From an uncultured virus (IMG/VR IMGVR_UViG_3300045609_000049) (Duplodnaviria > Heunggongvirae > Uroviricota > Caudoviricetes): a DNA stretch of 64,000 nt. The stretch's first letter is position 1; every line of letters starts with the position of its first letter. The stretch is taken from the IMG/VR virus record IMGVR_UViG_3300045609_000049; one strand, 5' to 3'. The translations under genes and the position numbers were made by a program. Of this stretch, positions 15,644 to 51,583 are shown in pieces. Below the pieces are notes generated by a model that had not been told where the DNA came from, searched no databases, and was given only the letters and a program-made list of their open reading frames with translations.

Positions 15644-17518
15644 ATGACAGAAATTACAATTTTAGGGTTGATCCCTGAGTACTGTGCCTTGTTTCTCTTG
15701 TTGGTGATTATGTTTATCAATCAACGTAAAAACGATGCAAGGAAAATTACAGATTCTAGACAGAAGTTAATAAATCATGACTTTATAAATTGTGAGTTGA
15801 TTACACTTGCAATCATAGTTGTGGATACTGTTAGATACAGTGTTCATAGTCCTACAGTAGAATACTTAACTGCAATGATTTTCCATTGTTCAGTTGTTGT
15901 TGTAGCTAACTGTATTACTACTTATATTTATGATATTTTACCATCGCTTAAAGAAAAGTCAATGACATTCTATAAGATTAAGGGTAAGATTACTCTTGCA
16001 GTCGTATGTATTATGGCATTGCTTTCACCTACAGGTCTTATATATGGACTTGTTGACGGTAATGTAGTTGCTGGTAAACTTTGTTTCATCTCATATATTG
16101 TTGGCGCATCATTATTCGTTATTTGTATGTTTGGTGCATATAAATCAAATGTATCAAGAAAGATTAGACATACATTGTATGTTATAATCATCTGCACAGT
16201 TGTACCAGGTAGTTTTGAGTTTATTTTTAGATCTACAGTAACAAGCGGCATAGGATTTGTTGCAGGTCTGATTATGTTATCTGGTATGTTCCATGATGGA
16301 GTATTTGATATGACGCATGGAACTGAGTCATTTGCAAACATTGGCGGTCATCTTGCAAAGAACTCTAAAGTTCTCGTATTTGATATTAAACCTAATAAAG
16401 AACTCAGACATAATCAAATTGACGAAGATATTCATAAGGTACTTATGACTATTAAGGAAAAATTTGGTTGTTACACATTATATGAATCTAATGGACGATA
16501 TGCCCTTATTATCAAGGTAAAGTACATCAATGATGTCTCGTCTATTTGGAATGATATTGTATATAAGTATAATAATGAGTTTGATATTTATAGTCTTATT
16601 GTAGATAAGAGTTATATCAGTAATGTTAATATGTCAGTTCTTTCTGATGTAGAATTGAGTAATGAACTTAGAGCTTTTAATGATAATGATGTTAACAAGA
16701 TTGAACGTAGAAAAATGATTAAGAACACAATTCTTTCAATTGTAGGTAATGATAACTACTTTGATAAAAGACTTGTTACAGTAGTTCAGCCTATTAAAGA
16801 TATTACAATAAATAAGTTCTTAACCAGTGAAATGCTCACTAGATTGAGAGTAGATGGTATAGATGGATTAGTTATGCCTTATGAATTTATTCCAATCGTA
16901 GAAGAACTTAAATGTGTTCATAAGTTCAATCTTTGTATTCTTGATAATGCCTGCAGACTTATGAAGCAAATTCGAGCAAATAGAATTGAGTTCAATAGTA
17001 TTTCAGTAAACTTCGATCCTTCAGAACTTGTAGACAAGTCATTTGTCTCTGATGTATCAAGTATTGTATATAATAATGGAATTCGTCCTAAATGTATTCA
17101 TATTGAGATTACTGAGTCATCTGAATTGGAAGACTCTGAGAAGACTCGTAGCTGCATAACAGACCTCTTAAATCTTGGATTTAAAGTTTACCTTGATGAT
17201 TTTGGTACAAAGTATTCTAACATTGTAGAATTACTTAGTTCAAAGTTCAATGTAATTAAAATTGATCGTCAGCTTATTCTCAAAGCTCTTGAAGATGAAG
17301 CTGCTTACAAGGTAGTAACTGCACTAAGTTCCGCATGTAGTGCAGTCGGTTATAAAGTATTGTTTGAAGGAGTTGACAGTGACGATGGTATTAAGTTAGC
17401 TAGAGATAATGATGCAACTTATATCCAAGGTTTCTATTACTCAGAACCGCTTGAATGGAACGATTTTATGGAATTTATAAAAAATGAAAATCAAGCACAG
17501 TTGAAAGTAGTTAAGTAA
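15644..17518 (+). CDS. Membrane-bound EAL-domain protein (c-di-GMP phosphodiesterase-like)
   Basis: N-terminal TM helices; VQPI...SEMLTR, IEITES, LDDFGT, IKIDR, EGV, IQGFYYSEP. Confidence 0.85.
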   Translation: MTEITILGLIPEYCALFLLLVIMFINQRKNDARKITDSRQKLINHDFINCELITLAIIVVDTVRYSVHSPTVEYLTAMIFHCSVVVVANCITTYIYDILPSLKEKSMTFYKIKGKITLAVVCIMALLSPTGLIYGLVDGNVVAGKLCFISYIVGASLFVICMFGAYKSNVSRKIRHTLYVIIICTVVPGSFEFIFRSTVTSGIGFVAGLIMLSGMFHDGVFDMTHGTESFANIGGHLAKNSKVLVFDIKPNKELRHNQIDEDIHKVLMTIKEKFGCYTLYESNGRYALIIKVKYINDVSSIWNDIVYKYNNEFDIYSLIVDKSYISNVNMSVLSDVELSNELRAFNDNDVNKIERRKMIKNTILSIVGNDNYFDKRLVTVVQPIKDITINKFLTSEMLTRLRVDGIDGLVMPYEFIPIVEELKCVHKFNLCILDNACRLMKQIRANRIEFNSISVNFDPSELVDKSFVSDVSSIVYNNGIRPKCIHIEITESSELEDSEKTRSCITDLLNLGFKVYLDDFGTKYSNIVELLSSKFNVIKIDRQLILKALEDEAAYKVVTALSSACSAVGYKVLFEGVDSDDGIKLARDNDATYIQGFYYSEPLEWNDFMEFIKNENQAQLKVVK

Positions 17519-17556: not shown

Positions 17557-18912
17557 ATGAATAGCAATCAGTTATTTAGACAAGTAGCTAGACGTACACT
17601 AACTACGAAATTTGTCCCTCGAGGCAGATTTCAAAAAGGACGATTACGACGTCTATTAAAACAAGCAAAAAAGAATAGTTCATTTTATAGGGAGTTATAT
17701 AAAGATATTGATCTTAGTCGGATAACTCCCTATAATATTGCAGAATTACCTGCAGTGACTAAGTCTCAACTTATTGAAAATTATGGTGATTGGGTATGTG
17801 ATACAGATATTCATAAAGAAGATGTTATTGAGTATGCATCAAATGTTCAAAATATTGGAAGATTATATCTAGACAAATACTATATAACATCAACATCAGG
17901 TTCTACTGGAGAAAAACTAAAAGTTATCAATGAACAGAACGACTTCATAGAAATGTTAGCAATGGGTGCAATAGATACATGGCCTAAACTATCATACGCT
18001 ATAGACGTTGCTAAAAGTCATCGACCAGTTGTGTATATTGCACCTACTGATGGATTTTACGCATCTGTTCTTGTAGCTAGAACTTACTTAAATTTGTCAG
18101 ATAATTTTAACTCAGAAATTATTGATTTTAGAGTTCCTACTGATGAATTAGTACTTAGACTTAACCAAATCAATCCTATACTGATTGGAGGATATGTTAG
18201 TACATTTTTGATTCTTGCAGATGAAGCTAAAGCTGGACGACTAAATATAAATGTAAAGTATATGGTACCAATCGGCACAGCATATTCTGAAGAAGACAGA
18301 CAAAGAGTTAAGGAAGCTTTTGATTGTGAAACATTTACATCCTATAGTTGTACAGAAGCTGGAGAGATTGGATGCGAATGTGTATACGGACATTTTCATC
18401 TCGCTAAAGGTGTAATCGTTGAACCTGTAGATGATAATCTAAATGTTATTGAAGATGGAAAAGAATCTAGTGGCGTTCTAATCACAAATTTGTGGAATAG
18501 ATCAATGCCATTTATTAGATATTTGCTCAATGATAGATGTATTGTGCATAATGAACAATGCAAATGTGGACGTAAAACAAAATGGATAGAAGTCATTGGA
18601 AGAGAAGTAATTCGAGTTTACTTCTTAAATGATGACAACAAAGTAATTCAGATGACTGACTTTATGTTTGAAGCAATTCTAAACGATATTTGTAGTGGTA
18701 AAGCAGATCATCAAATGATTATAGATGGTAATACAATTGAAATGAGATTTAATATAAAGAATGATTTTATAAAGTTTAGTCAGTTCAAATGTATTAGAAG
18801 CAGAATACAAGAATTGGCAAATGTAAATGATCTCAGTTTAGATGTAGTACTTAGTGATGAATTACCTATTGTAGATAATTCAGGTAAAACAAAGAGAATA
18901 ATCATAAGATAG
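17557..18912 (+). CDS. Phenylacetate-CoA ligase/CapK-like adenylate-forming enzyme
   Basis: STSGSTG, YSCTEAG, MPFIRYLLND, CKCGR, SGKTK. Confidence 0.82.
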   Translation: MNSNQLFRQVARRTLTTKFVPRGRFQKGRLRRLLKQAKKNSSFYRELYKDIDLSRITPYNIAELPAVTKSQLIENYGDWVCDTDIHKEDVIEYASNVQNIGRLYLDKYYITSTSGSTGEKLKVINEQNDFIEMLAMGAIDTWPKLSYAIDVAKSHRPVVYIAPTDGFYASVLVARTYLNLSDNFNSEIIDFRVPTDELVLRLNQINPILIGGYVSTFLILADEAKAGRLNINVKYMVPIGTAYSEEDRQRVKEAFDCETFTSYSCTEAGEIGCECVYGHFHLAKGVIVEPVDDNLNVIEDGKESSGVLITNLWNRSMPFIRYLLNDRCIVHNEQCKCGRKTKWIEVIGREVIRVYFLNDDNKVIQMTDFMFEAILNDICSGKADHQMIIDGNTIEMRFNIKNDFIKFSQFKCIRSRIQELANVNDLSLDVVLSDELPIVDNSGKTKRIIIR

Positions 18913-19062
18913 TTTACTCTACGTATGTAGAGGTTTTTCCATTGAAGCATCAATCAAGTCTGCAGAGGCAGCGTTTTCTCTACGTATGTAGAGGTTTTTC
19001 CGTCATAGAGTTGATGTCAATTTCTACAAACTTGTCTTCTCTACGTATGTAGAGGTTATTCC
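18912..19062 (+). CRISPR. Mini CRISPR array B (3 repeats, 2 spacers)
   Basis: 29-nt repeats at 18912, 18973, 19034; 32-nt spacers; 61-nt period. Confidence 0.9.
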
Positions 19063-19145: not shown

Positions 19146-20492
19146 TTATAAGCAATCTGCCAAATCATCTGCGTATTTGCTAAACTGTTCATAATTTCGT
19201 AAAGAATCTATAGTAGTATTTAATAGTTTATCAAATTTCTCTTTAGAATCAATAACTGAACGAGCACGATAATCATCATCGTCTTCGTTTGTCATATCAA
19301 CCACGAACTTAAATACATTCTGATCCTTAACTTGAGCCTTCTCCAACTTAACTAAAGGCGCTTTAGTATCAACAGCTACAATAGTCAAACATTCATGCTC
19401 TATATAGGAGTCATCACTATTATCCGCAAAGAATGCATCTATTGAGTCATATCTTGATTGTATGTCTAACTTAGATGAATCATCAATCCGGTATACAAAG
19501 TCCTTAAGTGCTTCTGTGTTTTCATCCGTATGTTCGTCGGTAGATTTGTCTCCAACTGTACAGAATCGAATTTCATAATCTACTTTAGCATTGCCATACA
19601 CCTGAGCATCACCATGCACTTGAGCATTATCATACACTTTAGCATTGCCATACACATAAGCATTGCCATACACATAAGCATTATCATACACTTTAGCTTT
19701 ACCATACACTTCAGCATCACCATACACTTTAGCCTTGCCATACACCCAAGCATGGTCATACACTTTAGCATCACCATACACATTAGCATACACATAAGCA
19801 TTGTCATACACCCAAGCATTGCCATACACTTTAGCCTTGCCATACACCCAAGCCTTGCCATACACTTGAGCATTGCCACACACCCAAGCCTTGCCATACA
19901 CTTGAGCATTGCCATATACTTGAGCATCATCATACACATGAGCATTGTCAAACACCTCAGCTTTACCATACACATAAGCATTGCCATACACTTTAGCGTC
20001 TTCATATACTTTAGCATCATCACACACTTTAGCATCGCCACACACTATAGCTGATTCACACACCCAAACATCACCGTACACCCAAGCATTGCCATACACT
20101 TGAGCATTACCATACACTTTAGCATTGCCATACACTACAGCTGATTCATGCACTTTAGCATCGCCATACACCCAAGCTTTACCATACACCTCAGCATTAT
20201 CATACACTTTAGCATTGCCATACGCATAAGCATCATCATACACTTTAGCATCGCCACACACTATAGCTGATTCACACACCCAAACATCACCGTACACCCA
20301 AGCATTGCCATACACTTGAGCATTACCATACACTTTAGCGTTGCCATCAACCCAGCAATTACCTTCCTGTGATAGATTTTCTTCTTTCTCAATCCAACCA
20401 CCAAGTTTGCCGTCGTTTAAGCGTTTAATTCGATGAAGAATATGGCCATCGAGATTCATAGTTTCAGCAGTAAATTCATATTTTGGTCCCAT
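19146..20492 (-). CDS. Hexapeptide-repeat (left-handed beta-helix-like) protein
   Basis: GGWIEKEENLSQEGNCWV followed by many VYGNAx repeats. Confidence 0.85.
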   Translation of the reverse strand: MGPKYEFTAETMNLDGHILHRIKRLNDGKLGGWIEKEENLSQEGNCWVDGNAKVYGNAQVYGNAWVYGDVWVCESAIVCGDAKVYDDAYAYGNAKVYDNAEVYGKAWVYGDAKVHESAVVYGNAKVYGNAQVYGNAWVYGDVWVCESAIVCGDAKVCDDAKVYEDAKVYGNAYVYGKAEVFDNAHVYDDAQVYGNAQVYGKAWVCGNAQVYGKAWVYGKAKVYGNAWVYDNAYVYANVYGDAKVYDHAWVYGKAKVYGDAEVYGKAKVYDNAYVYGNAYVYGNAKVYDNAQVHGDAQVYGNAKVDYEIRFCTVGDKSTDEHTDENTEALKDFVYRIDDSSKLDIQSRYDSIDAFFADNSDDSYIEHECLTIVAVDTKAPLVKLEKAQVKDQNVFKFVVDMTNEDDDDYRARSVIDSKEKFDKLLNTTIDSLRNYEQFSKYADDLADCL

Positions 20493-21879: not shown

Positions 21880-22002
21880 ATGAGTACAGTAAAACAAGTA
21901 GATTTTACAGTCAAGCCTTTAAAGAAGACTGATCAATACTTTGGATTCTCTTTAGAAGATGATCCGATGCACATCATGCCTGACGGAACTATCTTCCATA
22001 AT
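21880..22002 (+). other. Split intein C-piece (41 aa, blocks F and G)
   Basis: DQYFGFSLEDD...DGTIFHN followed by Ser; own RBS and start. Confidence 0.85.
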
Positions 22003-25000
22003 TCTGGCAAGAGTGTTTGTGAGCAGAGCATAGTTGGCCACGTATCTAGATATTCAGATAGATTTCAGTTGGTAGGAGTCGACTGTAAGCGTATTTAATT
22101 CAATGCGCATTTCTATTGAACTCTATTGCTCAGAGGTGTGATTTAGATTTTATTCTAAATTGCTAACGGTATCAGCAAAATAAGCATAGTTGGTTGGGTG
22201 TTACAACAGTACCAACTTTAATAATGACGAAACAGCTGACTAAGAGAATCTAAGCCTAGAAATAGGTCAGTTAAAGACAATACCGTGCTAAGTCCGAAAG
22301 GAAAAGTGTATCGACTATCTCCGTGAGGAGAGTACATCCGAGAATGAGCTACGGGTGGAAGTGGTAGAAGTATAATTTTAAAGGAGTTTTTAATAATGAT
22401 TATTTGTAAAATTTGTGGAAAGGAATGTTCTGATAGAGGAATAGGCGCACATGTAAAAATCAGCATAGTATGATGCCTGTCCAATATTATGATACATATT
22501 ATGGTAAACATAAATGTCCAGTGTGTGGAAAAGATACAAATTTCAGAAGTATTCATCAAGGATATTTAGAATTTTGTAGCATTAAATGTGCAGATTTAGA
22601 ACGAAGTATATTTAAAACTAGAAATCCACAGAAAGACCCACAAATAAAGCAAAAAACACAGGAAACATGCATTAAAAGATATGGAGTATCTAATCCATAT
22701 CAAATAGAACATGTAAAAACTAAATGTATTGCAAATAATCATACAAAAGATGCTTTAGATAAACGTACAAAATCATTATATAAAAATCTTGAAAACTTTT
22801 GTAAAGCCAATAATTGTATTACTATGGGAGAAGCATTAAAAATAAATCCATGCATAGGTTGGTGGAGTGAAGTAGATTTTATTATCTATAAGAAATGGCG
22901 TAAATGTATATCTAAAGACGATTTAGACATTATTAAAAACTATAAGCCAAATAATAACCGAAGTAAAAATGAGATCAAATTATATAATCTTATTTGCGAT
23001 AATTTTAATGGTATAGTTGAACATTCAACTAGATCTGTAATAAATCCATTAGAATTAGACATCTACATTCCAGATCTTAAATTAGCAATTGAATATAATG
23101 GTTGTTATTATCATTCTATAGAAGCTGGAACACTTAAAGATTATCATCTTGAAAAATCATTAAGATGTAGAGATTTAGGAATTAGACTTATTCATATCTA
23201 TGACTTTGAAAATTTTGATACTCAATGTAAGTTAGTGTTAAAATTACTTCAGGGTACAGATGAATTTTGTAAAATAGACTTCAATAAAAATAATCTTATA
23301 GAAGTCGTTCCTAAACCTGAATTAATTTTTAGTGATTTGAATCTTCATGTTTATGGCGCTGGAAAATTATACAAGATATAGTCAGTTTATTATGGAAACA
23401 TAATAAGATAACGGTAGAATTTAATTTACTTAGAGGCGTAGATTTTGCGCATCTTTATTGAACCTTATTACTCAAGGGTGTCTTAGAAATAAGGCTAACG
23501 GTAGAAGTTGAATAAGACTGCTATATGAAATGTTACAACAAGATATATAGCCATAGACCAAAGACGAAGTCGCTTCGTAAGAGAACCTACGGTCCAGAAA
23601 TGGATAGCAGGCAATACCGTGCTAAGCTTATACTGTTTAAAGGTGCAATAAAACTTGATATAATAGTATTAGAAAGTGTATCGACTATTCCCGAGAGAGG
23701 GAAGTACAGCCGAGGATGAGTTACGGTTGGAAGTAGTAGAGGTATATAAAATGATTAAATGTAAAATATGTAATGCAGAATATAATACATATAAACAATT
23801 ATCTTGGCATGTCAAATATCATAATCTGACAAATCAACAATATTATGATATGTATATGAAACAGCCTAATGAGGGTTATTGTTTAATGTGTAGAAAAGTT
23901 ACTGCATTTATAAGTCTAAATTTAGGGTATAGACAACATTGTAATAAACAATGTACTAAGTTAGACAAACAAGTTCAAGTAAAAAGATTAAACACTAATA
24001 TTGATAGATATGGATATGCAACATCATTAAGTTCTAAAGAAACTCAAGATAAAATAAAACAAACATTTATTAGAAAATATGGAGTATCAAATCCTTATGC
24101 TGCAGAATCAGTAAAGGAAAAGATAAAACAAAATAATTTAGAACAGTACGGAGTAGAAAATCCACAACAACGTGATGATGTTAAACAGAAAACGGCAACA
24201 ACTAATTTAGAATTATATGGAAATACATGTGTAATGCAAAGTGAATCTGTAAAAAGTAAAGTAAGACAAACTATGCAAGAACGATATGGTTCTGATAACA
24301 TATTTGGTTCTGAATATGGAAAACAGAAAATTAAAGAAACTAACTTAGAACGTTATGGAGTTGAGAATCCTCAGCAGAATCATGATATTCACGTAAAAAC
24401 ACTGAAACATTATAAGTATAATTCATTAAATTTTGACAGTTCTTGGGAATTAGCAGTTTATATTTATTGTATAGACCATAATATATCAATTATTAGAGAA
24501 TCAGTACGATTCAAATATATCAATTCAAATGGTGTTGAAAGCTATTATTTTCCAGATTTTGAAATTGAAGGTCATATAGTTGAAATTAAAGGTGGACAAT
24601 TTTTAGACAAGAACAATAAGTTAAAAGATAAAGCAAAACAAAAATGTATAGATGAACATAATGTTGAATTATGGATTAAGTCAGATGTTCAGAAATATAT
24701 TCAGTATTGTGAAGAAAAGTTTGGTAGTACTAAATGGTATAATCAATTTAGATAATCATTTTATATATAAGATATAGTCAGTTCATTATTGAAAAATAGT
24801 GAGTAAATGAAAAGGTGTAAAAGGAGTAGCTTTAGATGTACCTACGGCCGCAGACGCCGTGGCAAATTTCCAACAGATTATGATGGAGAGATTTAAGTTC
24901 ATGGAGCAGATGCAGGTTGATTTTATAAAATTATTGGCTTGCGCGTAGAGTGATCTGCGTGAGAAATTAACTATTTAATTGCTGGGATAATATTCTTTTA

Positions 25001-28000
25001 ATGAATATGACTTTAACAACAATCAAGCTATAACATAATTGGAAACAATAAGTGTGAATTGCAACGAAAGTAGAAAAAATTGATTGTTTGACCTATGGTT
25101 AAATCCTAAGGGTTAGTAGAATGAGAAATCAGCAGCTAAGTACCCTAACGTTATACTGAGATCATCAGTTAGCTAAGTCGAGGGTAAAAGTTCAACGACT
25201 AGAGCTCACAGAGGCTACATCATAAAAATAAGAGTGGAAATCTCGAATATTTGTAGCAATACTCGTAGGGCCTATTATGGTGGGTGAGAATCCCTTAAAT
25301 CGAAAAGGTAGTCCCTTATTTATAAGGTGAAGATATAGTCTAAGGAGAGATCAGAATGAATGAAACAATATGTAGAATATGTAATCAACCAATTTCAAAT
25401 AGGTTGTTTAAGAAACATTTAGAACAACATAATATTAGTCAACAACCATATTATGATAGGTACTTTGGAAAAGGTGTATGTGAAGTATGTGGTAAACCTA
25501 CCAGCTTTAAGGATATTTTCAAAGGTTATAATAATTATTGTTCTAGATCATGCTTAAATAAATCTACTATACATTCTGATTCAGTTAAAACTACTAAAAC
25601 TATTAGGTATGGAACTCCTACATACAATAATCCAAGTAAGACAAGTGAATCTTTATTAAATAGAACAGATGATGAAAAACAAAAATCTATTCTTAAAAGA
25701 AAATCTACTTGTCAAGAAAAGTATGGAGATGAAACATATAATAATAGTAAAAAGTATAAAGAAACTTGTCTTAAGGTATATGGAACAGTGATTCCATTTG
25801 CTGCAGAATCAGTAAAGCAGAAAATTTCAGACAAATATTATGCTAAATCTGCTGAAGAAAAGAAAGCGATTTATACAAAGAGACAAGCAACATTTGATAG
25901 TAAAACTGAAGAAGAAATGAAAATTATTGGTCAGAAACATAGAGATGCATATATGTTGAAGTCAGATAAAGAAAAAGCTGAGATTAAACATAAAAGCTAT
26001 CTGACTAAAAAGAAGAATCATTCATTTAAGGTATCAAAGACTGAAGATTTATGTTATGTACAACTTTTAAGTATTTATCCAGATGCTAAACATGGATATA
26101 AGTCAACTAAATATCCTTTTGTATGTGATTTATACATTCCATCTAAAGATATTTATATTGAGCTTAACTTTCATTGGACACATGGATTACATCCATACAA
26201 TAAGAAAAATGATAGTAAAAAGTTAGCAGAGTGGATAGAAAAATCTAAAACATCTAAGTATTTTGAAAATGCTATTTATACTTGGACAGTTAGAGATACA
26301 CACAAGTTAAAAGTAGCTAAACATAATAAAGTACAATTATTTGTATTTTATACTAAATCTGAGTTTGATACTTGGTTATCTATGCAATAATGTTTATAAA
26401 ATCAAAGACAAGGAAGTAAATTATTTTACCACAATGGGCAAAACTGTTCAGTTTGATGAAATCTTTGAGCTTATGGTAGACCTTGACGAAAATGATAGAA
26501 ACTATAGTAAAATGAAGGCCATCTATCCTGAAGGACGTCAGCCTATTATTACGACTATTCAAAAGATTTATGATGGTATGATGGAAGGTAAGTGGGATGG
26601 TAGAAATCCTCAGTTACCTGAAGTAAAAGGTTACAACTCATATATCGACAAGAATAGTATTAGAATGACGAAGGGCATTTATACTCCTAAAGTATTACTC
26701 TTCCTTGCAGATGAGTTGAATGAGTTGATGACATCAGACGATTATAAGTCAGTTGATATTGTTAAACAAGCACTGGGATCTATAGCTAGACTCGGTAGAG
26801 CTTATTTGTTGTAGGCTCGGTATATAAAATTATAAGATATAAGGTAAATAAAATGTTAAATGAATTGCAATGTAAGATTTGTGGATATAAAGCATCTACA
26901 AAACAAGGTTTTAATAGTCATTTATCACATAGACATCATATAAAATCAAAAGATTATTATGATAATTATCTTAAACAAGATGGTGAAGGAATATGTCATT
27001 GTGGTAATCCAACAAAATTTAGAAATATGTGGTATGGCTATAACAGACATTGTTGTACTAGATGTATTCCATTAGATCCAGACGTACAAAATAAAATGAA
27101 AATTACTTGTCAAGAAAAATATGGCACAGATTATGCTTGGCAAGCAGAACAAACAAAAGCTAAGATTAAACAAACTACTAGAAATCATTATGGAGTAGAT
27201 TGTTATTTACACACAGATGCATGTAGAAAAATTACATCTGAAGTTACTAGTTCTGATAAAGTTAAAGATAAGATTAAACAATCTAATTTAAAACGTTATG
27301 GAGTAGAATGTTCATTTCAAGCCTCAGTAGTTAAAGATAAGATTAAGTGTACTAAATTAGATAGATATGGCCATGAAACTTATAATAACTTAGATAAAGC
27401 AAAAGAAACTAGTAGAGCTAAATATGGAGTAGATAATCCTGCTCAATCTATAAAAGTACAAAATAAAATGAAAGCTACATGTTTGGAACGTTATGGTGTT
27501 GATAATATCTGGAAAGATAGAGATTCTAGATTAAAAGCTAAAAAGAAGTCACAAAAATCTATGTGTAAACATGGAAATAGATCTTCCTTAGAAGCTTTAT
27601 TAGAGCAATATTTTATTGATAATCATATTAAATATGAACCAGAATATAATAAAGATATTCGTTATCCATATTTTTGTGATTTTTATTTACCAGATTTTGA
27701 TTTATTTATTGAAATAAATGGATATTACACACACTGTAATCATTGGTTTGATTCAAATAATTCAGAAGATGTTAATAAGTTAAACGAACTTATTGAAAAG
27801 TCTAAAGTTCATTCAATGTACAAAACTTGTATAAGAGTTTGGACTCAATCTGATGTAGAGAAACGAAATTGTGCCAAAAATAATAAACTTAATTATGTTG
27901 TATTATGGTCTAAACAAGATATTCTTGATTGGATTAATTCTGGATTTGAAATTAGACATGATTATTAAATTTATCTTATAATAATATATATAAAAATTAA

Positions 28001-31000
28001 CCTATTGAATTGCTGGAACAGTACATTAGTACGTACCTAAAGTTCTTTCAGCTACAACGTAGAGATGAAATATGCTCAAGCGTGATATGCGGAGAAATCA
28101 GAAAAAATGAAAGAAATGGCCTATGGTTAAATCCTAAGGGTTATAAGAATGGAAAATCAGCAGCTAAGCCTCGAATAGAGGAAAGTTCAGAGACTATCGA
28201 AAGCATAGTATAAGAGAAATACTTATATGAAGAAGTGAGTAGAGTAGCTTTATAAGCGAAGTGGTAGGCATTTCATATTGGCTAATGCAATATGGGATGA
28301 AGATATAGTCCAACTTTTATATGAAAGTATAAAATATAGTGGCAGCAGTACATCTTGCTCTTGCTTAACTAAAAATACGGAGTTTTATTAATGAAATGTT
28401 TAATTTGTGAACATGAAAGTCCAATATATTTGTAGAAATTAACGGTTATTGGATGTATAATACACATTGGTTTGATGAAAATTCTATAGAAGATTTAAAC
28501 GCATTAAAAGAGTGGAAAAAGAAAGCTAAAACTTCTACAAGAATGCAATCAGCTATAAATATTTGGACAAAAATTGATATAGAAAAACGTAATTGTGCCA
28601 AAAGTAATAAGTTAAATTACGTAGTTCTATGGACAATAGAAGATATTCAGAATTGGATAGATTCTAATTTCAAAATTAGACATGATTATTAAAAAACATA
28701 ATATTTAGACAGGCACTATATACAAGTAATTGTGTGTAGTTATCCCATTGAATTGCTGGAAACTCTTTAGAGCTTCTTAAACTACAGCATAGTACCTTAA
28801 ATGGTACAGGTGCGAATGTTTGAAAATTAAGAAGATTAGACAATCAGCAGCTAAGGCCGAAAGGTAAAGTTCAACGACTATCGAAAGTATAATTATAGAG
28901 AAATACTATAATGAATAAATGAGTAGAGTAGCAGAAATGCGAAGTGGTGGGCATCTTATAAAGGTTAATACAATATAAGATGAAGATATAGTCTAATAGT
29001 ACAATTGTACTAGTGTCAGAGAGCAAGTGGTTCTACTATTTCAACAGACTTGAAGAACAATATTCAGATGAGTGTTCTTTTAGGTGGATTTGATGATGGT
29101 GCATCACAGTTAATGTTTGAAAAGGATTAACAATGAATAGTCCCTATGTACAGAAATGTGCATAGCAAACCAATTTAATTGCTGGAAATTTAATTCCTAG
29201 AGAATTACGTAGAAATACGCTAAAGCCTTCTCGCCACAGCATAAGCATGAAATATAGTTAAGTGCGACGGTAGTGAAAACAGAAAGAAGTAAGAAGGATT
29301 GTATAAGGTTAAATCCTAAGTACAACAAAATGGATAACCAGCAGCCAAGTTCCGAATAGGAAAAGGTTCAACGACTATCGAAAGCTACAGGTCTTGAAAC
29401 ACAGATGAAAATAAGATGACTATTTAATTATATAGTCATACGAAGTGAGTAGAGTAGTGCCGAGTGGTGAGCATCTATATGAGATTAGTATAGAGTAAGT
29501 CTATTAAAACGAAATGGTTGGTATTATTTTAGATTAAAAATATAATAGAAAGGAGACTTACATGAAATGTTTAGAATGTGGACAAGATATTAAAAATAAT
29601 ATTGCATTAGGTTTACATGTTAAAAAACATAATATGACTAGTAAAGAGTATTATGATAAATATATGCGAAAATCTAATGAAGGCATTTGTCCTACTTGTA
29701 AGAAAGAAACTCCTTGGCAATCGTTTGATAGAGGGTATCTTAAACATTGTTCATATAAATGTACTCAAAATGATCCTAAAGTAATTAAAAAACGTGAAGA
29801 TCATTTTATGAGTAAATATGGTGTTAAGAATCCATATCAAGCAGAAGAAGTAAAACAAAAAATAAAAGAAAGTAATTTAGCTAATTATAGTGTTGAATAT
29901 AATTTACAGAGAAAAGAAACTATTCAACAGGCAAAACAAACTAAATTAGAACGTTATGGAGATCAAAATTATAATAATACAACAAAAGCTAAGACAACTT
30001 GTTTAGATAAATATGGAGTAGATTCATATTCAAAAACTGATAAATTTAAGTCTATTATTAGAGAACAAGTAGATTTTTATGCAATTGCTAAAAAAGGATT
30101 AGTAACACATAATAGTAAAGTAGATAAACAATGTAAGTTGGGATATATAACTATACAAGATGCTTTTATTAAGTACGGTCAAAGCTGGTATAAAAATAAG
30201 ATAGTTCCAATTTTATATAAATATCATACTGGATTTATTTCTCTAGCTGATGAACAGATTATAAAATTTTATTATGAAAATAATAATGGTCATAGTAGTC
30301 AAGAAGAAAATAAGCTATTAGAATTATTGCATAAGTATTATTCTGGAACTATAATTCATGGTGAACATAAAATAATTGCACCTTTAGAATTAGACTGTTA
30401 TATTCCTGAGTTAAACATAGCTATAGAATATAATGGTATTTATTGGCATTCTGCTAAATTTAAGAATAATGACTATCATTATAATAAATCTATGTCTTGT
30501 TTTAATAAAGGCATTAGACTTATTCACTTTTATGAATTTGAAGACTGGACATATATAGAACAGTTTATTAAAGATTTATTTAATAACACTGAGCAAATTA
30601 CACATAATTTTGATAAATTTTCTCCATTACAATTTGATTATTCTACAATTGAATTTTCAGGTCCGCAATTGTTAGAATGTAATATATTTGGATCTGGAAC
30701 ATTTAATCTAAAATAATAATGATATAGTCTACTCTCATGTGAAAGCATGAGGCGAAAGCATAATAGAGTAACGAACTATTATAAATGTAAGGATTTCTCA
30801 GTTGGCTAAACCTCAGATCAAGGGAAGAGGTTTTATCGGATTAACAATCTAGTCCGGGCGTACAGTGATGTGCGTAAAAATTATCCTATTTAATTGCTGG
30901 AAAACTGATTCCAAGAGAATCACGCAGAAATGTGCCTAAGAGCTCTTCAAACTACAGCATAATACCTGTAAAATGGTATAAGTGTGACAGTTACGAAAGT

Positions 31001-32647
31001 AGAAAAAATTGAAGAGATTGTATATGGTTAAATCCTAAGTACAATAAAATGGGTAATCTTAGCAGCGAAGACCGAAAGGTAACGTTCAACGACTATCGAA
31101 AGCTACAGGTCTTGAAACACAGATGAAAATAAGGTCATAATGACACGAAGTGAGTAGAGTAGTGCCAAGTGGTTAGCGTCTATATGAGATTAGTATAGAG
31201 TAAGTCTATTAAAACGAAATGGTAGGTATCATAACAATTTTCTGGTAAAAATAAAATGGAAGGCGAATAATAATTGAAATGTTTAATATTCAGCCTGACT
31301 TAATACTCAAGTGTTTTCTCTACGTGTGTAGAGGTTATTCCCTAAAGCTCACAATCCACAATGTAAGCATGAAGTTTTCTCTACATATGTAGAGGTTATT
31401 CTAATTTTGGTCCTATACCAGAAGGTCCAGAAATTATTTGTACTAAACCATATAGTATATATGGTGCAGGAAAATTGTTATGATAATGATATAGTCTCCT
31501 CTCATATGAAAGTATGAGGCGAAGGCATAATAGACTAACGAACTATTATAAAGATAAGGCAGGAAATGAAATTATCGAAACTCAAACTTATTACACACAA
31601 CCAGAGAATTAACAATCCAGTGGTTCTCTATAAACCTATTTAATTGCTGGAACAGTATCAAATAATGATACGGACCTAAAGCTCACAATCCACAACGTAA
31701 GGATGAAATAAGCCTAAGCGTGACGGGCGCGAAAGCAGAAAAAAGAACGTTATGTTCAAGTGAGATGGCCTAAGGACGATTTGGTGAGTCCTAAGGGTTG
31801 TAAGAATGGGAAATCAGCAGCCAAGCCTCGAATAGAGGACGGTTCAACGACTATCAAAAGCTACAGGCCTTGTAATACAGGATGAAAATAAGATGACTAT
31901 TATAATAGTTATACGAAGTGAGTAGAGTAGCGCCAGAGTGGTTAGTATCTAAGTGAGATTAGCTTAGAGTAAATCTATTAAAGCGAAATGGTAGGTGCTA
32001 TAGAAATATAGTGAAGATATAGTCTAGATTCTTATGAAAGTAAGGAAGGTTATGTATTTAACCAAAAAACGGACTGGGAGTTTGATGAAGACCAGAAATT
32101 GTCTTATAATAACCCTGTATTTATTGAGTTATTAAAGAGACGCGGTAAAAGCTTTGACGAGCTAAATACTGGTTGGGTACCTCAGCATAAGATTGGTGAG
32201 GAAGCAGAAGAACCAGATGAAGAAATTGAAGAAAAAGAGGATGAGTTTGAAGAAGATGAAGATGTAAATGAAGAAGATCTTTTTACATCTGCACCTAAAA
32301 TGGAAGCTCCACCTAAGAAAGAAGAAGATTCTAATGAAGTAAGCTTTAAGTTCGGTAGAAAATCTAAACCAGAAGAACCTGTTGCACCAGCATCAGTAGA
32401 ATCACCAGATTTAGGATTAAGTGGACTAGAAGCCATGTTTGGACCATCTACTTCAACTATTCCCGAACCACCTACACCATCTCAACCTAATTTTGGACAA
32501 CCGTCTAATAGAGATCGAATTGGTGCGGCTTTGAATGAAGTTCAAGGTGGAAAACCTAAAATTAAGTTAAATATTGACAAGACTTCTGCAGATCAACCGA
32601 TGAAGCCTACAATTAAACTCAATATTAAGCCTAAGGATCAACAGTAA
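21880..32647 (+). CDS. FtsK/SpoIIIE-like ATPase 1, C-half with N-terminal intein C-piece; exons 21880-22092, 23414-23439, 24810-24917, 26385-26802, 28342-28365, 29014-29127, 30793-30841, 31560-31609, 32072-32647
   Basis: Exons sum to 1578 nt (525 aa plus stop): IFHN-SGKS, VDCKRVEF, Walker B LLFLADELNELM, RLGRAAAVHLALACQRAS, KGRG, acidic/Pro-rich tail. Confidence 0.85.
22093..23413 (+). mobile_element. Group I intron with endonuclease ORF
   Basis: P1 gcgt/gcgc; gctaacggt...ataccgtgctaag, tcgacta, gatatagtc; terminal G. Confidence 0.82.
22396..23381 (+). pseudogene. Intron-encoded zinc-finger/PD-(D/E)XK endonuclease with 1-nt frameshift near 22455
   Basis: MIICKICGK start with RBS is out of frame with the 22470-23381 ORF (ELDIYIPDLKLAIEYNG); one extra A in gtaaaaatcag restores HVKNQH. 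Confidence 0.7.
23440..24809 (+). mobile_element. Group I intron with endonuclease ORF
   Basis: P1 gcgt/gcgc; same core family as the 22093 intron; terminal G; frame restored. Confidence 0.82.
23751..24755 (+). CDS. Intron-encoded endonuclease (zinc finger, YGVxNP repeats, PD-(D/E)XK)
   Basis: FDSSWE...YFPDF...VEIKG. Confidence 0.8.
   Translation: MIKCKICNAEYNTYKQLSWHVKYHNLTNQQYYDMYMKQPNEGYCLMCRKVTAFISLNLGYRQHCNKQCTKLDKQVQVKRLNTNIDRYGYATSLSSKETQDKIKQTFIRKYGVSNPYAAESVKEKIKQNNLEQYGVENPQQRDDVKQKTATTNLELYGNTCVMQSESVKSKVRQTMQERYGSDNIFGSEYGKQKIKETNLERYGVENPQQNHDIHVKTLKHYKYNSLNFDSSWELAVYIYCIDHNISIIRESVRFKYINSNGVESYYFPDFEIEGHIVEIKGGQFLDKNNKLKDKAKQKCIDEHNVELWIKSDVQKYIQYCEEKFGSTKWYNQFR
24918..26384 (+). 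mobile_element. Group I intron with endonuclease ORF after P7
   Basis: P1 gcaggt/gcttgc; P10 ttttataaaattattg pairs with exon caataatgtttataaaa; standard core motifs. Confidence 0.82.
25356..26390 (+). CDS. Intron-encoded endonuclease
   Basis: Zinc fingers; YPFVCDLYIP...IELNFHWTHG. Confidence 0.8.
   Translation: MNETICRICNQPISNRLFKKHLEQHNISQQPYYDRYFGKGVCEVCGKPTSFKDIFKGYNNYCSRSCLNKSTIHSDSVKTTKTIRYGTPTYNNPSKTSESLLNRTDDEKQKSILKRKSTCQEKYGDETYNNSKKYKETCLKVYGTVIPFAAESVKQKISDKYYAKSAEEKKAIYTKRQATFDSKTEEEMKIIGQKHRDAYMLKSDKEKAEIKHKSYLTKKKNHSFKVSKTEDLCYVQLLSIYPDAKHGYKSTKYPFVCDLYIPSKDIYIELNFHWTHGLHPYNKKNDSKKLAEWIEKSKTSKYFENAIYTWTVRDTHKLKVAKHNKVQLFVFYTKSEFDTWLSMQ
26803..28341 (+). mobile_element. Group I intron with endonuclease ORF ahead of the core
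   Basis: P1 gagct/ggctc; P10 tatttgttgt pairs with gcagcagta; core at about 28000-28320. Confidence 0.82.
26853..27968 (+). CDS. Intron-encoded endonuclease
   Basis: Zinc fingers, YGV repeats, YPYFCDFYLP...IEINGYYTH. Confidence 0.8.
   Translation: MLNELQCKICGYKASTKQGFNSHLSHRHHIKSKDYYDNYLKQDGEGICHCGNPTKFRNMWYGYNRHCCTRCIPLDPDVQNKMKITCQEKYGTDYAWQAEQTKAKIKQTTRNHYGVDCYLHTDACRKITSEVTSSDKVKDKIKQSNLKRYGVECSFQASVVKDKIKCTKLDRYGHETYNNLDKAKETSRAKYGVDNPAQSIKVQNKMKATCLERYGVDNIWKDRDSRLKAKKKSQKSMCKHGNRSSLEALLEQYFIDNHIKYEPEYNKDIRYPYFCDFYLPDFDLFIEINGYYTHCNHWFDSNNSEDVNKLNELIEKSKVHSMYKTCIRVWTQSDVEKRNCAKNNKLNYVVLWSKQDILDWINSGFEIRHDY
28366..29013 (+). mobile_element. Group I intron with deleted endonuclease remnant in the P1 loop
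   Basis: Guide gacaggca near 28708; core motifs; terminal G29013; frame restored (LALA-CQR). Confidence 0.8.
28391..28692 (+). pseudogene. Internally deleted endonuclease
   Basis: MKCLICEH start joined out of frame to FVEINGYW...KIRHDY, which is paralogous to the 26853 ORF C-terminus. Confidence 0.75.
29128..30792 (+). mobile_element. Group I intron with endonuclease ORF
   Basis: P1 ggat/gtcc; core motifs; terminal G. Confidence 0.8.
29562..30716 (+). CDS. Intron-encoded endonuclease
   Basis: MKCLECG zinc finger; ELDCYIPELNIAIEYNGIYWH. Confidence 0.82.
   Translation: MKCLECGQDIKNNIALGLHVKKHNMTSKEYYDKYMRKSNEGICPTCKKETPWQSFDRGYLKHCSYKCTQNDPKVIKKREDHFMSKYGVKNPYQAEEVKQKIKESNLANYSVEYNLQRKETIQQAKQTKLERYGDQNYNNTTKAKTTCLDKYGVDSYSKTDKFKSIIREQVDFYAIAKKGLVTHNSKVDKQCKLGYITIQDAFIKYGQSWYKNKIVPILYKYHTGFISLADEQIIKFYYENNNGHSSQEENKLLELLHKYYSGTIIHGEHKIIAPLELDCYIPELNIAIEYNGIYWHSAKFKNNDYHYNKSMSCFNKGIRLIHFYEFEDWTYIEQFIKDLFNNTEQITHNFDKFSPLQFDYSTIEFSGPQLLECNIFGSGTFNLK
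30842..31559 (+). mobile_element. Group I intron carrying a mini CRISPR array in place of its endonuclease
   Basis: P1 cggat/gtccg; core motifs; terminal G; frame restored (FIG-SGNE). Confidence 0.8.
31313..31402 (+). CRISPR. Mini CRISPR array C (2 repeats, 1 spacer) inside an intron
   Basis: Repeats 31313-31341 and 31374-31402; 32-nt spacer. Confidence 0.85.
31610..32071 (+). mobile_element. Group I intron, no ORF
   Basis: P1 gagaat/gttctc; P10 ccagt/actgg; core motifs; terminal G. Confidence 0.85.
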
Positions 32648-32968
32648 TTGCCGAGCGTCAGTTTGAAATATAGCTGACGCTTTATTACTCATTTATTGCA
32701 AAAAATGATACTCTAATCTGGTATATATAGAGTATAGAAATTGATAATCTTGAACCTTTTGAAGAAATGAGGCTCGAATTAGTAACATGAAAAAGTGCTT
32801 TTACCATTGTTTATTATGGCGCTAAGCCGGGGTTTGTTTATTTAACTAATATAAAATACCTATCTCGAAAGAGGTGGGTATTTTTCCTGAAAACTATTTA
32901 CATTTATACATAAACTTGTTATAATAAACTTATAATAATACAGCCGCTCAAAACAAAGGAGAATAGCT

Positions 32969-33808
32969 ATGCAGATTATTAAAAAAGAACATGATAGACA
33001 GTCATACCTCGAATATACTGATCTTGACAGCAAAATTACCTTCGACAACGGACATTATTTTATCATTGATATGACAGATAAAGAGCTGCAGGAAGACGTC
33101 GCTCACACTGGCGGATTCTGTGCTAACATCATGCGCCGCGAAATTAGTGACAAAAATCTTCAGAATGTCACAAAAATACTGTTCTACGGTGTTCCGCAAA
33201 AAACCATTGATTCACTATTTGGCATCATATATATGGATGACGATTATAATGTGAAACATTATCTATACGATGATAACTTCAATGATTATCTGTATTTTCA
33301 GAAAAGATTCAGCAAATACATTCGCACTGGCTTCATTTCCGAACTAAAGACGATCGACAATCTTGCTGAATTTACAGCGGAATTCGAAAATCCGAGCGTA
33401 GATTTTGGTTTTATGGTCGACAACCAGCCTGCAACGGTGGACCACGAATACACCGCTTCCGATTATACCGAAATGGTCATAGATGATGCAGCTAAACGGT
33501 TCAAAGAACTGAATGTAAGTCATATTAGACTCACACCACAGATTGATGTCATTTCAGGACTGCATCTCAAATGCGTCCCATATACGACTGACGGAGTCGC
33601 AATCAAAGAATATCAGTTCAAGGGTAAGTACAAATCTGAAGATGATTACGCAGCTTTCCTCCGACGACGCTACGAAGGCATAACTGACTACCAAGTACAA
33701 TGGCGCATTGATGCTGTATTGTCATTTGAAATGACGACTGAGTCACTGAGAGTCTTGGTCAACAAAAAGAATGTTAGACTAGCGTTTGCAGATAAACAGT
33801 GCAATTAA
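32969..33808 (+). CDS. Hypothetical protein
   Basis: 279-aa ORF with promoter and RBS; visibly more GC-rich than its neighbours. Confidence 0.7.
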   Translation: MQIIKKEHDRQSYLEYTDLDSKITFDNGHYFIIDMTDKELQEDVAHTGGFCANIMRREISDKNLQNVTKILFYGVPQKTIDSLFGIIYMDDDYNVKHYLYDDNFNDYLYFQKRFSKYIRTGFISELKTIDNLAEFTAEFENPSVDFGFMVDNQPATVDHEYTASDYTEMVIDDAAKRFKELNVSHIRLTPQIDVISGLHLKCVPYTTDGVAIKEYQFKGKYKSEDDYAAFLRRRYEGITDYQVQWRIDAVLSFEMTTESLRVLVNKKNVRLAFADKQCN

Positions 33809-33914
33809 CTTTGTTAGATATAATAATTACAATAAGGAGTAATTTATCAAAAAGTATGGTATTGCGGCAATAAATATCTATAAGAAAATTAAAGTAGATA
33901 TGGAATATTAAAGA

Positions 33915-33929
33915 GCTATTTATATATAA
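33915..33929 (+). promoter_or_regulatory. Recurring GCTATTTA-AT-rich motif, putative element-specific promoter (representative)
   Basis: Intergenic copies at about 12396, 20703, 21707, 36071, 42028, 46273, 48398, 59643, 61352 and 20566-20573 (minus), each oriented with the downstream gene or array. Confidence 0.6.
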
Positions 33930-33941
33930 CAAGAAGGGTGT

Positions 33942-34032
33942 GTTTACTCTACGTATGTAGAGGTTATTCCTTACAATTTGTCAAGCACAACCTATTAAAC
34001 TTGTTTTTCTCTACGCATGTAGAGGTTATTCC
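33942..34032 (+). CRISPR. Mini CRISPR array D (2 repeats, 1 spacer)
   Basis: Repeats at 33942 and 34003; spacer 33971-34002; promoter motif upstream and hairpin downstream. Confidence 0.85.
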
Positions 34033-34087
34033 ATTTAAGGAGGTCTCTTAGTTTTTAAGAGACCTCTAACTATAACAGGAGGTAATT

Positions 34088-36154: not shown

Positions 36155-36508
36155 ATGATTGGCATACTTGAAGGTAACCTAATTTTTGAATTTAGGGACG
36201 AAGGACAATTAGAGATTGCATTAACAAATTACGCTGAAAGAAAAGGTTGTAGTACATTATTTATATGTGACAGAGGCGACAAGATTAAATCTGTCTTAAA
36301 TAAAGGTTTTACTTCAACGCCTAATCTTCAGGAAGAGACATCATATCTTATTTATGGATGTCCTAACTATAATAAAGACTTACCTGGCGTAAATGAACAT
36401 TTGCCAGATACCAGTGCTAGAGGATTTAGTGAATGGGAAATTTTAGGAACTCCATTTATCTATTCTTCAGGATTTAGAATTCCTAAACCGCTTGACTATT
36501 TGTCTTAA
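36155..36508 (+). CDS. Hypothetical protein
   Basis: ORF with promoter motif, leader hairpin and RBS. Confidence 0.65.
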   Translation: MIGILEGNLIFEFRDEGQLEIALTNYAERKGCSTLFICDRGDKIKSVLNKGFTSTPNLQEETSYLIYGCPNYNKDLPGVNEHLPDTSARGFSEWEILGTPFIYSSGFRIPKPLDYLS

Positions 36509-36591
36509 TATGTACGTTTGTACTTGACTATGATATAATTAACACATAAAGTGTTTATTTTAAATTTTTAATCCAGAAAGGAAATACAACT

Positions 36592-37362
36592 ATGGGCAAA
36601 ATTATTGATGCATTGTATCAGCCTATGACAGCTACTGGAAACAACATTGATCCTAGATATTTTAAGGATAATGGTGACGGTAGCTACACACTTACTCCGC
36701 TTATGCTCTACAATATTGCAAGAGATGCTGCAGAATATTTCAAGCAGCGTATTTTTGATATTGACATTGATTGTCAATATCACTCTGCAAGTGTTAGAGA
36801 AGTAAAGGACACTTTTACTGAAAAGGCACTTAGAGACCAGTGGAGACTCAAGTATGGTGAACAGCTTAAAGAAGCGAAAAAGAGATGGTATGAATATCGT
36901 GACGAACATCCAGATGAATTTGAGTTAGGTGCAAGAAGAATTGCAACTGGTGGTGAAGACGAAAATAGATATTTCGATAGTTACACACCATTTATTACAC
37001 CTAATTTAGTAAGCACAATTCAGACCTATAATGCTGCTAGAGAGTTATTAGCACGTTTTGATTCTGAGAATGGTGCAGAATATGAAACACTTCCATTTGA
37101 AGAGCCTTTATATTCTAGAGAAAAATTTGCACATGTTCATAAAGCTGTTAAAGCTAAGATCTATTCAGAGCTTGGTATTCCAACAAATCATCTTGAGGTT
37201 GGCAAAGTAGAAAAAGTAGTTTGTAGAATCAATAATAAGAAATGCGATGTTATTGCGACAGACGATTCAGAAATTGAAGGTTTCTATAAAGGTCTTATTG
37301 TATACATCACTGGATCTAACACAGCTGAATACAAACAGCGTAGATATGAAGAGTTGAAATAG
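36592..37362 (+). CDS. Hypothetical protein, paralog of 47188-48330
   Basis: Shared NID.RYF..N.DG.Y..TPL...NIARD.A and W..KY motifs. Confidence 0.75.
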   Translation: MGKIIDALYQPMTATGNNIDPRYFKDNGDGSYTLTPLMLYNIARDAAEYFKQRIFDIDIDCQYHSASVREVKDTFTEKALRDQWRLKYGEQLKEAKKRWYEYRDEHPDEFELGARRIATGGEDENRYFDSYTPFITPNLVSTIQTYNAARELLARFDSENGAEYETLPFEEPLYSREKFAHVHKAVKAKIYSELGIPTNHLEVGKVEKVVCRINNKKCDVIATDDSEIEGFYKGLIVYITGSNTAEYKQRRYEELK

Positions 37363-39204: not shown

Positions 39205-39585
39205 ATGAAGAAAACTATTGCAGATGTAAAGGTAGGAGATTTAGTTCTTGGTACCGATGGTAAATTCCATAAAGTTATTGAAAAGACTACAGCTAAACTC
39301 TCCTACCACATGTATGAAATAGAATTTAGCAATGGTAAAGTCAAATGTTCTAATGTACATCAATGGAATGTATTTATCAAAAACAAGATGTATATGATTG
39401 ACGCTGAAGGTATTTATCAAGAATTTGATTGGTACAAGGGTCGACATGTTGGAACTAACGATGGACCAACGATTGTTAATATTAGAAAAATTGAACCTGA
39501 AATTGTGCAGTGTATAACTACTGACGCACCTGACCATCAGTTTGCTATTTATACTGAAGGTGGCGCTGTTTGTAACGATAACTAA
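39205..39585 (+). CDS. Stand-alone intein middle piece (class-3-like; blocks B and F, no block A, no HN end)
   Basis: TIADVKVGDLVLGTDG, MYEIEFSNG, HQW, IVQCITTDAPDHQF. Confidence 0.8.
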   Translation: MKKTIADVKVGDLVLGTDGKFHKVIEKTTAKLSYHMYEIEFSNGKVKCSNVHQWNVFIKNKMYMIDAEGIYQEFDWYKGRHVGTNDGPTIVNIRKIEPEIVQCITTDAPDHQFAIYTEGGAVCNDN

Positions 39586-47004: not shown

Positions 47005-47053
47005 GGAGAATTATTATGGTAGTTCAAACTCAATGTGGTTTATTGTAATAATG

Positions 47054-47074
47054 TACGTATGTAGAGGTTATTCT
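47054..47074 (+). repeat. Isolated partial CRISPR repeat
   Basis: tacgtatgtagaggttattct equals the 3' 21 nt of the repeat. Confidence 0.65.
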
Positions 47075-51335: not shown

Positions 51336-51583
51336 AAGGAGGTAGAATATGATTCAAGTACGTTATAACTATTTACATTGTATTTAAGTCATGTTATAAT
51401 TATCTCATAATAAAATAAAGGCGAATTACTAATATGAATGGAAATTGTCACAGGAAGGTGATTGTTAAGGTGTATTATGATGCACAAGTAAGAGACGACG
51501 CCCAGGTAAGAGGCAATGCTTGGGTATATACAATGCTGAAGTAACTGGTGACGCAGAAGCGTGAAGCTAAGGAGGTAGTTAAC

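What the first reader, a model, noticed from the sequence alone, without database searches (positions are those of the whole stretch)
31342..31707. Intron-borne spacer matches the adjacent intron (30/32 nt), with a variant PAM-side flank
Seen: spacer ctaaagctcacaatccacaaTgtaagCatgaa (31342-31373) versus ctaaagctcacaatccacaaCgtaagGatgaa (31676-31707) in the next intron; mismatches are at positions 21 and 27. The self copy is preceded by tacgGAC, whereas the homologous positions in the introns near 1083 and 43293 read tacgAAC. Inference: the spacer targets a related intron in a competing element, and self-targeting is avoided by the PAM change and mismatches. Alternatively it regulates its own gene.
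Basis: partly seen in the sequence, partly recalled or inferred. Interest (0 to 1): 0.8.

Follow-up and report, generated by a model that had tools for sequence, protein, structure and literature searches.

The report
CRISPR guide replaces intron's homing enzyme
A self-splicing intron in a giant bacterial virus has lost the DNA-cutting enzyme gene that normally spreads it and carries, in the same slot, a tiny CRISPR guide aimed at the next-door intron, probably as a weapon against related viruses and possibly as a new RNA-guided way for an intron to spread.

Summary
Observation confirmed: the 32-nt spacer lies between two 29-nt type I-E repeats and matches the next intron at 30/32 (300 shuffles reach at most 23). 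The array sits in loop L8 of a group I intron (intron 7 of 8) in a jumbo-phage FtsK-like gene. A close relative (L087) has the same intron with an intact 335-aa endonuclease gene; a 113-bp repeat-spacer-repeat cassette replaced 911 bp of it. Two other arrays of this lineage sit where DNA was replaced and target that lost DNA in relatives, both with an AAT flank, so AAY PAM and phage-versus-phage targeting are supported. No perfect protospacer was found. Best reading: an intron-borne mini-array that uses host or phage Cascade-Cas3 against rival intron-8 alleles. Boldest: RNA-guided homing. The scan noted ordinary phage mini-arrays on other DNA before; the look-ups returned none inside an intron. 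No expression data.

The parts
30842..31559 (+). Group I intron 7 (718 nt) of the FtsK-like ATPase gene; carries the mini-array in loop L8
   Evidence: Exon junctions match relatives without the intron; P, R, S motifs at 30892, 31084, 31487; RF00028 25.3 bits, sub-threshold; 427/451 and 150/157 identical to L087 intron 7 outside the cassette
31274..31289 (+). First ~5 codons of the lost endonuclease ORF
   Evidence: Aligns to the start of the 335-aa ORF in L087
31290..31312 (+). 23-nt filler of unknown origin at the left junction of the cassette
   Evidence: Absent from L087 intron 7; best outside match 18/23 inside another endonuclease ORF of G002, inconclusive
31313..31341 (+). Repeat 1 (29 nt, type I-E architecture: 21-nt hairpin part plus 8-nt handle)
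   Evidence: same architecture as repeats beside I-E cas genes in L011; last 10 nt as in the repeats of G004
31342..31373 (+). Spacer, 32 nt
   Evidence: identical in contigs of runs X4 and X6
31374..31402 (+). Repeat 2; its end is the right junction of the cassette
   Evidence: X10 and X14 contigs rejoin the window at 31402
31403..31483 (+). Last 26 codons of the lost endonuclease ORF; its 3' end forms one strand of stem P8
   Evidence: duplex of 31223-31250 with 31463-31490, -22.5 kcal/mol
31560..31609 (+). Exon 8 (50 nt)
31610..32071 (+). Group I intron 8 (462 nt, no ORF)
   Evidence: X14 contig joins 31609 to 32072 exactly; RF00028 43 bits
31673..31675 (+). PAM position of the self copy (GAC)
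   Evidence: orthologous alleles TAC
31676..31707 (+). Self protospacer, 30/32, in the P5 extension of intron 8, same sense as the crRNA
21880..32647 (+). C-terminal half of a fractured FtsK-like ATPase gene: intein C-piece plus 9 exons and 8 group I introns, 525 aa when spliced
   Evidence: open frame, 90-96% identical to L001/L002 over residues 1-334; Pfam FtsK_SpoIIIE E 4.7e-5 on the L001 ortholog, just under the cut-off
33942..34032 (+). Sister mini-array; its spacer hits the gene that this region replaced in L087 (31/32, AAT flank)

Best explanation
Intron 7 is a group I intron whose homing endonuclease gene was replaced by a one-spacer type I-E mini-array (shown). The array is transcribed with the ATPase pre-mRNA or the excised intron, and Cas6e cuts out a 61-nt crRNA (inferred). 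A type I-E Cascade-Cas3 from the host or from a phage of this lineage uses it to destroy co-infecting relatives whose site-8 intron carries this sequence behind an AAY PAM (inferred from two sister arrays). The phage's own intron 8 survives because GAC is a weak PAM and two PAM-distal mismatches add to that (inferred). The array probably arose on a chromosome with intron 7 but without intron 8, like L087 and X14, and a tolerated intron-8 allele joined later (inferred).
For: L087 holds the endonuclease-bearing allele; 911 bp replaced by 113 bp; X14 and X10 contigs fit that allele. Splicing elements intact, P8 kept. Sister spacer at 33971 matches L087 at 31/32 with AAT, 53 bp inside a 4.8-kb segment the window lacks. 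In G001 a 90-bp array replaces 10.8 kb present in G002, and its spacer matches the lost part at 24/32 nt and 8/10 aa with AAT; 0 of 150 shuffled peptides score as well. G004 encodes its own I-E Cascade and Cas2-Cas3 with repeats ending in the same 10 nt. Site 8 is polymorphic: filled in 6 of the 16 loci that span both sites, L081 and L002 probably being one phage. Near targets and self-avoidance are the published pattern of viral mini-arrays (PMC6858448).
Against: No perfect or AAY-flanked protospacer for this spacer in viral contigs, metagenome contigs, 4 related phage records or 20 metagenome loci; best outside match 23/32. Orthologous alleles read TAC. The spacer's T at position 21 occurs in 0 of 40 scored introns, which suggests the spacer drifted. 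No RNA evidence, no promoter signal above chance (7 found, 5.9 expected). No cas gene in 58 of 69 window ORFs scanned or by tblastn; host not identified. Four other window spacers have no match above 24/32 in what was examined.
Confidence: 0.55

Rival explanations
1. RNA-guided homing: the crRNA replaces the lost endonuclease functionally. In a rival without intron 7 but with intron 8, the target lies 116 bp from the empty intron-7 site; Cascade-Cas3 breaks the rival there and repair from the array-bearing genome copies intron 7 in.
For: Cassette sits exactly in the endonuclease slot. The needed recipient haplotype (site 7 empty, site 8 filled) is the commonest intron-bearing one: 6 of 16 loci, two probably one phage. 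PAM orientation would send Cas3 towards the empty site (Cas3 direction recalled, not from a call). Two sister cassettes target the DNA they replaced.
Against: Cas3 degrades long stretches rather than making a clean break (recalled). The array-bearing intron was seen in only two studies' worth of data beyond possible source runs and in none of the 23 related loci, so no sign of a sweep. Of the two sister cases only one has the long side of the replaced region on the PAM side.
Confidence: 0.2
2. Relic: the array once worked, but after intron 8 entered the same chromosome the spacer drifted and now has no real target.
For: No perfect target found; spacer departs from an invariant C; repeats in the window vary and two are solitary or partial.
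Against: Both repeats keep full hairpins and handles; the identical spacer occurs in a run of another study and year (X6); the sister spacer still matches at 31/32.
Confidence: 0.15
3. Self-regulation: Cascade binds the weak self target without cutting and slows transcription of the ATPase gene, like crRNA-like regulatory RNAs.
For: GAC is a partial PAM in one AAY system and the seed is perfect; phage crRNA-like RNAs that repress transcription are described (bioRxiv 10.1101/2024.10.29.618823, abstract).
Against: Target is about 9.8 kb into the gene, not at a promoter; spacer is full length; crRNA has the same sense as the intron RNA, so it cannot pair with it; sister arrays have no self match above 23/32.
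Confidence: 0.07
4. Local duplication or misassembly.
For: Five runs holding 96-98% of the words are all of one year and habitat, three flagged as possible source; no listed contig spans both copies.
Against: X4 contig 31194-31671 has 0 differences; X6, another study, holds 30863-31373 with 1 difference; the match stops exactly at the repeat borders; two differences separate the copies.
Confidence: 0.02

Closest known systems
Virus-borne CRISPR mini-arrays (SPV1/SPV2; PMC6858448, section 9 and passages read; review PMC11656645, passages)
   Same: One or two spacers, no adjacent cas genes, targets in related viruses close to the array, orthologous self locus altered or deleted.
   Different: There intergenic with host-like leaders; here inside a self-splicing intron in place of its endonuclease, aimed at another intron, with no leader found. 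The paper calls the reason for the proximity unclear.
Intron endonuclease gp210 of phage PhiPA3 (PMC11620839, search listing and start of abstract only)
   Same: A mobile intron's cargo harms a co-infecting relative.
   Different: Cargo there is a protein nuclease; here a crRNA that needs Cas proteins in trans.
IStrons, group I introns with TnpB and a guide RNA (PMC10690162, passages)
   Same: A group I intron transcript that also yields a guide RNA, with possible conflict between splicing and guide maturation.
   Different: IStrons encode their nuclease and move by a transposase; 'CRISPR array' has 0 occurrences in that text. Here CRISPR repeats, no nuclease, no transposase in the intron.
Vsr-like homing endonucleases in fractured genes and group I introns (PMC2677866, passages)
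   Same: The displaced ORF resembles this family weakly (PDB 3r3p, 'Mobile intron protein', E 0.018) and the host gene is fractured with a split intein.
   Different: Family membership of the ORF is not established; in the window it is deleted.
Phage crRNA-like RNAs (bioRxiv 10.1101/2024.10.29.618823, abstract; 10.1101/2023.03.03.530964, passages)
   Same: Phage mini-arrays that borrow Cas proteins with imperfect targets.
   Different: Those silence host cas or toxin genes; the only target seen here is phage intron DNA.

Membership tests
Type I-E CRISPR array | 29-nt repeat with hairpin and 8-nt handle, 32-nt spacer, 61-nt period | tested here: met
   same layout beside Cse1/Cse2/Cas7/Cas5/Cas6e in L011 and in G004
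Type I-E CRISPR array | 5' PAM of AAY/AAG type at protospacers | tested here: met
   AAT at 2 of 2 protospacers found in relatives; one of them is only 24/32
Type I-E CRISPR array | Processed crRNA and interference | not testable with these tools
   Only assembled contigs could be laid
Viral CRISPR mini-array | One or two spacers, no adjacent cas genes, in a virus | tested here: met
   No cas hit in 58 of 69 ORFs or by tblastn; collinear with 290-394 kb viral contigs; rest of the genome not held
Viral CRISPR mini-array | Spacer targets a related virus | tested here: inconclusive
   Met for two sister arrays; for this spacer only the 30/32 self copy was found
Viral CRISPR mini-array | Repeat identical to a host array | tested here: inconclusive
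   No genome with this repeat; nearest cellular repeats differ at several places; nearest match in type is phage G004's own system
Viral CRISPR mini-array | Promoter-containing leader | tested here: inconclusive
   No lineage promoter motif before this array, unlike the one at 33942; sigma-70 scan at chance level
Group I intron | P/Q/R/S core, P1 U-G, terminal G, exons rejoin in frame | tested here: met
   Rfam scores are below the gathering cut-off
Group I intron | Self-splicing of the array-bearing allele | not testable with these tools
   No RNA of this allele
Mobile (homing) intron | Intron-encoded endonuclease | tested here: not met
   ORF deleted except both ends
Mobile (homing) intron | Nuclease target is the empty insertion site | tested here: not met
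   Spacer does not span the exon 7-8 junction; target lies 116 bp from it in intron 8
IStron | TnpA/TnpB encoded in the intron | tested here: not met
   No ORF of 40 aa or more inside intron 7; the window's IS200/TnpB pair lies at 62092-63665

The most novel reading that the evidence does not exclude
A group I intron that swapped its protein homing endonuclease for a CRISPR guide and homes by borrowing Cascade-Cas3. More widely, repeat-spacer-repeat cassettes in this jumbo-phage lineage act as 90-113-bp selfish drive elements that replace a stretch of DNA and then cut rival alleles at or beside that same locus.
Probability: 0.22. Interest if true: 0.92.

Novelty: new variant of a known kind. 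Interest (0 to 1): 0.72.

Why it matters
It joins two separately known weapons of phage rivalry, intron cargo and borrowed CRISPR guides, in one 718-nt element, with the ancestral endonuclease-bearing allele in hand. It also gives three cases, two with both alleles and the target, of mini-arrays lying at or beside their target locus, which makes the open question of why viral mini-arrays target nearby DNA directly testable as exclusion versus gene drive. A splice-out intron as a carrier for crRNA is also a usable design idea.

Tried and rejected
Exact scans for the spacer or target found nothing in viral contigs (one search gave 2 chance hits that are not introns) or metagenome contigs. Repeat scans: 0 in viral contigs, 1 locus with a looser pair pattern, 0 and 23 loci in genomes, of which 4 were I-E-like arrays of other repeats; host not found. 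INPHARED blastn: only conserved intron pieces, at most 21% of the query. G004 spacers have no convincing target among fetched sequences, so no PAM from them. RNA pairing of crRNA with intron 8 rejected (same sense). TnpB as effector rejected (IS200/IS605 pair 31 kb away; repeats are I-E). Strict exclusion of introns 7 and 8 rejected: the window has both and L098 probably too. Cas3 directionality as cause of the replaced segments: 1 of 2, no support. Uncovered bins and small-share runs were not used as evidence. The first pairing table was out of register by one base and was redone. Targets of the spacers in the arrays at 13256-13500 and 18912-19062 remain unknown beyond the fetched relatives.

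Full report
Observation. The spacer at 31342-31373 and the site at 31676-31707 differ at positions 21 and 27 only. The spacer lies between two 29-nt repeats, two of 13 copies (two of them solitary or partial) scattered over the window in small arrays. No other spacer has a self match above 23, and 0 of 300 shuffles of this spacer exceed 23/32. The match stops at the repeat borders, so it is a spacer and not a duplication. Five public runs hold 96-98% of the region's 136 sampled words; three are flagged as possible source and all are of one year and habitat. Of four runs laid, X4 has a contig over 31194-31671 without differences and X6, from another study, one over 30863-31373 with one difference and the identical spacer; no listed piece spans both copies, and 147 pieces were not shown.

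Setting. The window is collinear with viral contigs of 290-394 kb; its own genome is not held. The region 21880-32647 is the C-terminal half of an FtsK-like ATPase gene broken by eight group I introns. Removing them gives an open 525-aa frame whose junctions match relatives that lack the introns; a contig of run X14 joins 31609 to 32072 exactly. The array lies in intron 7 (30842-31559) between the R and S elements, in loop L8, where intron 6 has a 384-aa ORF. The self target lies in the P5 extension of intron 8 (31610-32071), 273 nt past the array.

Key result. One, L087, has the same intron 7 (427/451 and 150/157 identical on either side) with an intact 335-aa ORF. In the window 911 bp of that ORF are replaced by 113 bp: 23 nt of unknown origin, repeat, spacer, repeat. 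About five first and 26 last codons remain, and the last ones form a strand of stem P8, which explains their retention. The ORF is of the zinc-finger/DUF7487 kind found in the neighbouring introns and weakly resembles PDB 3r3p, 'Mobile intron protein' (E 0.018); calling it a homing endonuclease is inference from position and this likeness (Vsr-like family: PMC2677866, passages). Contigs of X10 and X14 also leave the window at the cassette and rejoin at 31402. L087 and the X14 contig lack intron 8.

CRISPR type and PAM. The 29+32 layout matches arrays beside I-E genes in L011. G004, a more distant 467-kb relative, encodes Cas8e, Cas11, Cas7, Cas5, Cas6e and a Cas2-Cas3 fusion and has repeats ending in the same 10 nt; 1 of 4 related records has such genes. 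G001, a complete record with a mini-array, has none. So the effector may come from the host or from a phage; the host was not found. Two sister spacers have targets. The one at 33971 matches L087 at 31/32 (32/33 as scored) behind AAT, 53 bp inside a 4.8-kb segment that the window has replaced with 32807-34039, which holds that array. In G001 a repeat-spacer-repeat unit stands exactly where G002 has 10.8 kb more, and its spacer matches the lost end of the broken gene at 24/32 nt and 8/10 residues behind AAT; 0 of 150 shuffled peptides score as well, though another 24/32 hit without protein or synteny support exists in G003. Four other window spacers had no match above 24/32 in the sequences examined.

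The AAC introns at 1056 and 43264 are paralogs. Of five orthologous site-8 introns whose flank was read (L001, L002, L082, L092, L098; L081 treated as a copy of L002; L089 not scored), four have TAC and one AGC, and none matches the spacer above 23/32. Both mismatches fall in RNA stems. Position 21 is C paired with G in 20 of 20 distinct hairpins and C in 40 of 42 distinct introns (2 not scorable); position 27 is a Watson-Crick pair in 20 of 20, with C-G in 3. The self copy is canonical at both, so the changes lie on the side of the spacer or of an unseen allele. In the V. cholerae I-E system AAY is optimal and GAC and TAC are 9-50-fold weaker (PMC12767519, passages); that is another system and only a guide. 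No perfect protospacer turned up.

Mechanism. Shown: intact intron core, endonuclease replaced by an I-E cassette, AAT-flanked targets in relatives for two sister cassettes, polymorphic introns. Of 23 loci examined, 16 span both sites: 8 have neither intron, 6 only intron 8 (two probably one phage), 2 only intron 7; L098 probably has both; 6 do not span. Inferred: transcription with the ATPase mRNA, Cas6e processing in L8, attack on rival intron-8 alleles, weak self-targeting. I put exclusion of rivals at 0.55. Homing, at 0.2, rests on geometry: in a rival with empty site 7 and filled site 8 the target is 116 bp from the empty site, on the side towards which Cas3 would travel (direction recalled). 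Relic 0.15, self-regulation 0.07, artefact 0.02.

Comparison and novelty. Intron cargo used against rivals (PMC11620839, listing) and introns that yield guide RNAs (PMC10690162, passages) are known separately. Searches for a CRISPR array inside a group I intron, or for mini-arrays as homing elements, gave 0 papers or no relevant title among those listed; 'intron' has 0 occurrences in three mini-array papers. The library lacks most subscription papers, and I did not see the supplement of 10.1101/2023.03.03.530964 that lists viral mini-arrays, which could include such a case. Earlier notes of this scan describe ordinary phage mini-arrays on other DNA; the sequence look-up found no look-alike. 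Verdict: real, a new variant of a known kind, interest 0.72.

Noticed in passing
window 261-1490, 8431-8925, 21880-22002; same order in G002 and G003: The ATPase's intein appears split in three pieces: a ~16-aa N-piece ending the N-terminal gene half, a separate ORF with the Hint middle (Pfam E 7e-9), and a 41-aa C-piece starting the C-terminal half. All three motifs found in the window and G003, two in G002. A natural three-piece intein would be notable; one paper search listed 3 papers, and I did not see the one 'three-piece' passage of PMC2677866.
   Followed up: partly
L103:7507-14983 (G004 241.5-249 kb): Phage-encoded type I-E interference operon with a Cas2-Cas3 fusion, no Cas1 among the ten ORFs scanned, directly before an intron-rich copy of the same ATPase gene; repeats dispersed 190-230 kb away.
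   Followed up: partly
G001 36503-36592 versus G002 269843-280642: A 90-bp repeat-spacer-repeat unit precisely replaces 10.8 kb and targets the lost end of the gene it breaks.
   Followed up: yes
window 32807-34039 versus L087:10237-15004: Replacement segment with a 279-aa ORF of no Pfam family and the array that targets the displaced gene.
   Followed up: partly
window 13256-13500, 15299-15327, 18912-19062, 47046-47074: Further mini-arrays and solitary or partial repeats; targets unknown. Solitary repeats could be RNA anti-CRISPRs (untested).
   Followed up: partly
run X6, contig over 30863-31373: Identical spacer at high depth, but about 20 unaligned bases at both ends and no cover of repeat 2; may be amplification tags or another context.
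   Followed up: no
window 12392, 20699, 21703, 33911, 36067, 46269, 48394, 59639: A recurring AT-rich motif upstream of genes, likely a phage promoter; a related motif occurs in G001, G003, G004.
   Followed up: no
window 19146-20492 (-) and 51548-52508 (+): 18-bp-period beta-solenoid repeat genes in opposite orientation.
   Followed up: no
window 5784-6656, 6696-8430, 11013-12212, 15644-17518: Phage carries a sortase, sigma-70 genes, an MFS transporter and an EAL-domain protein; the sortase hints at a Gram-positive host.
   Followed up: no
window 39205-39585: Another stand-alone Hint-like ORF (Pfam E 5e-4).
   Followed up: no
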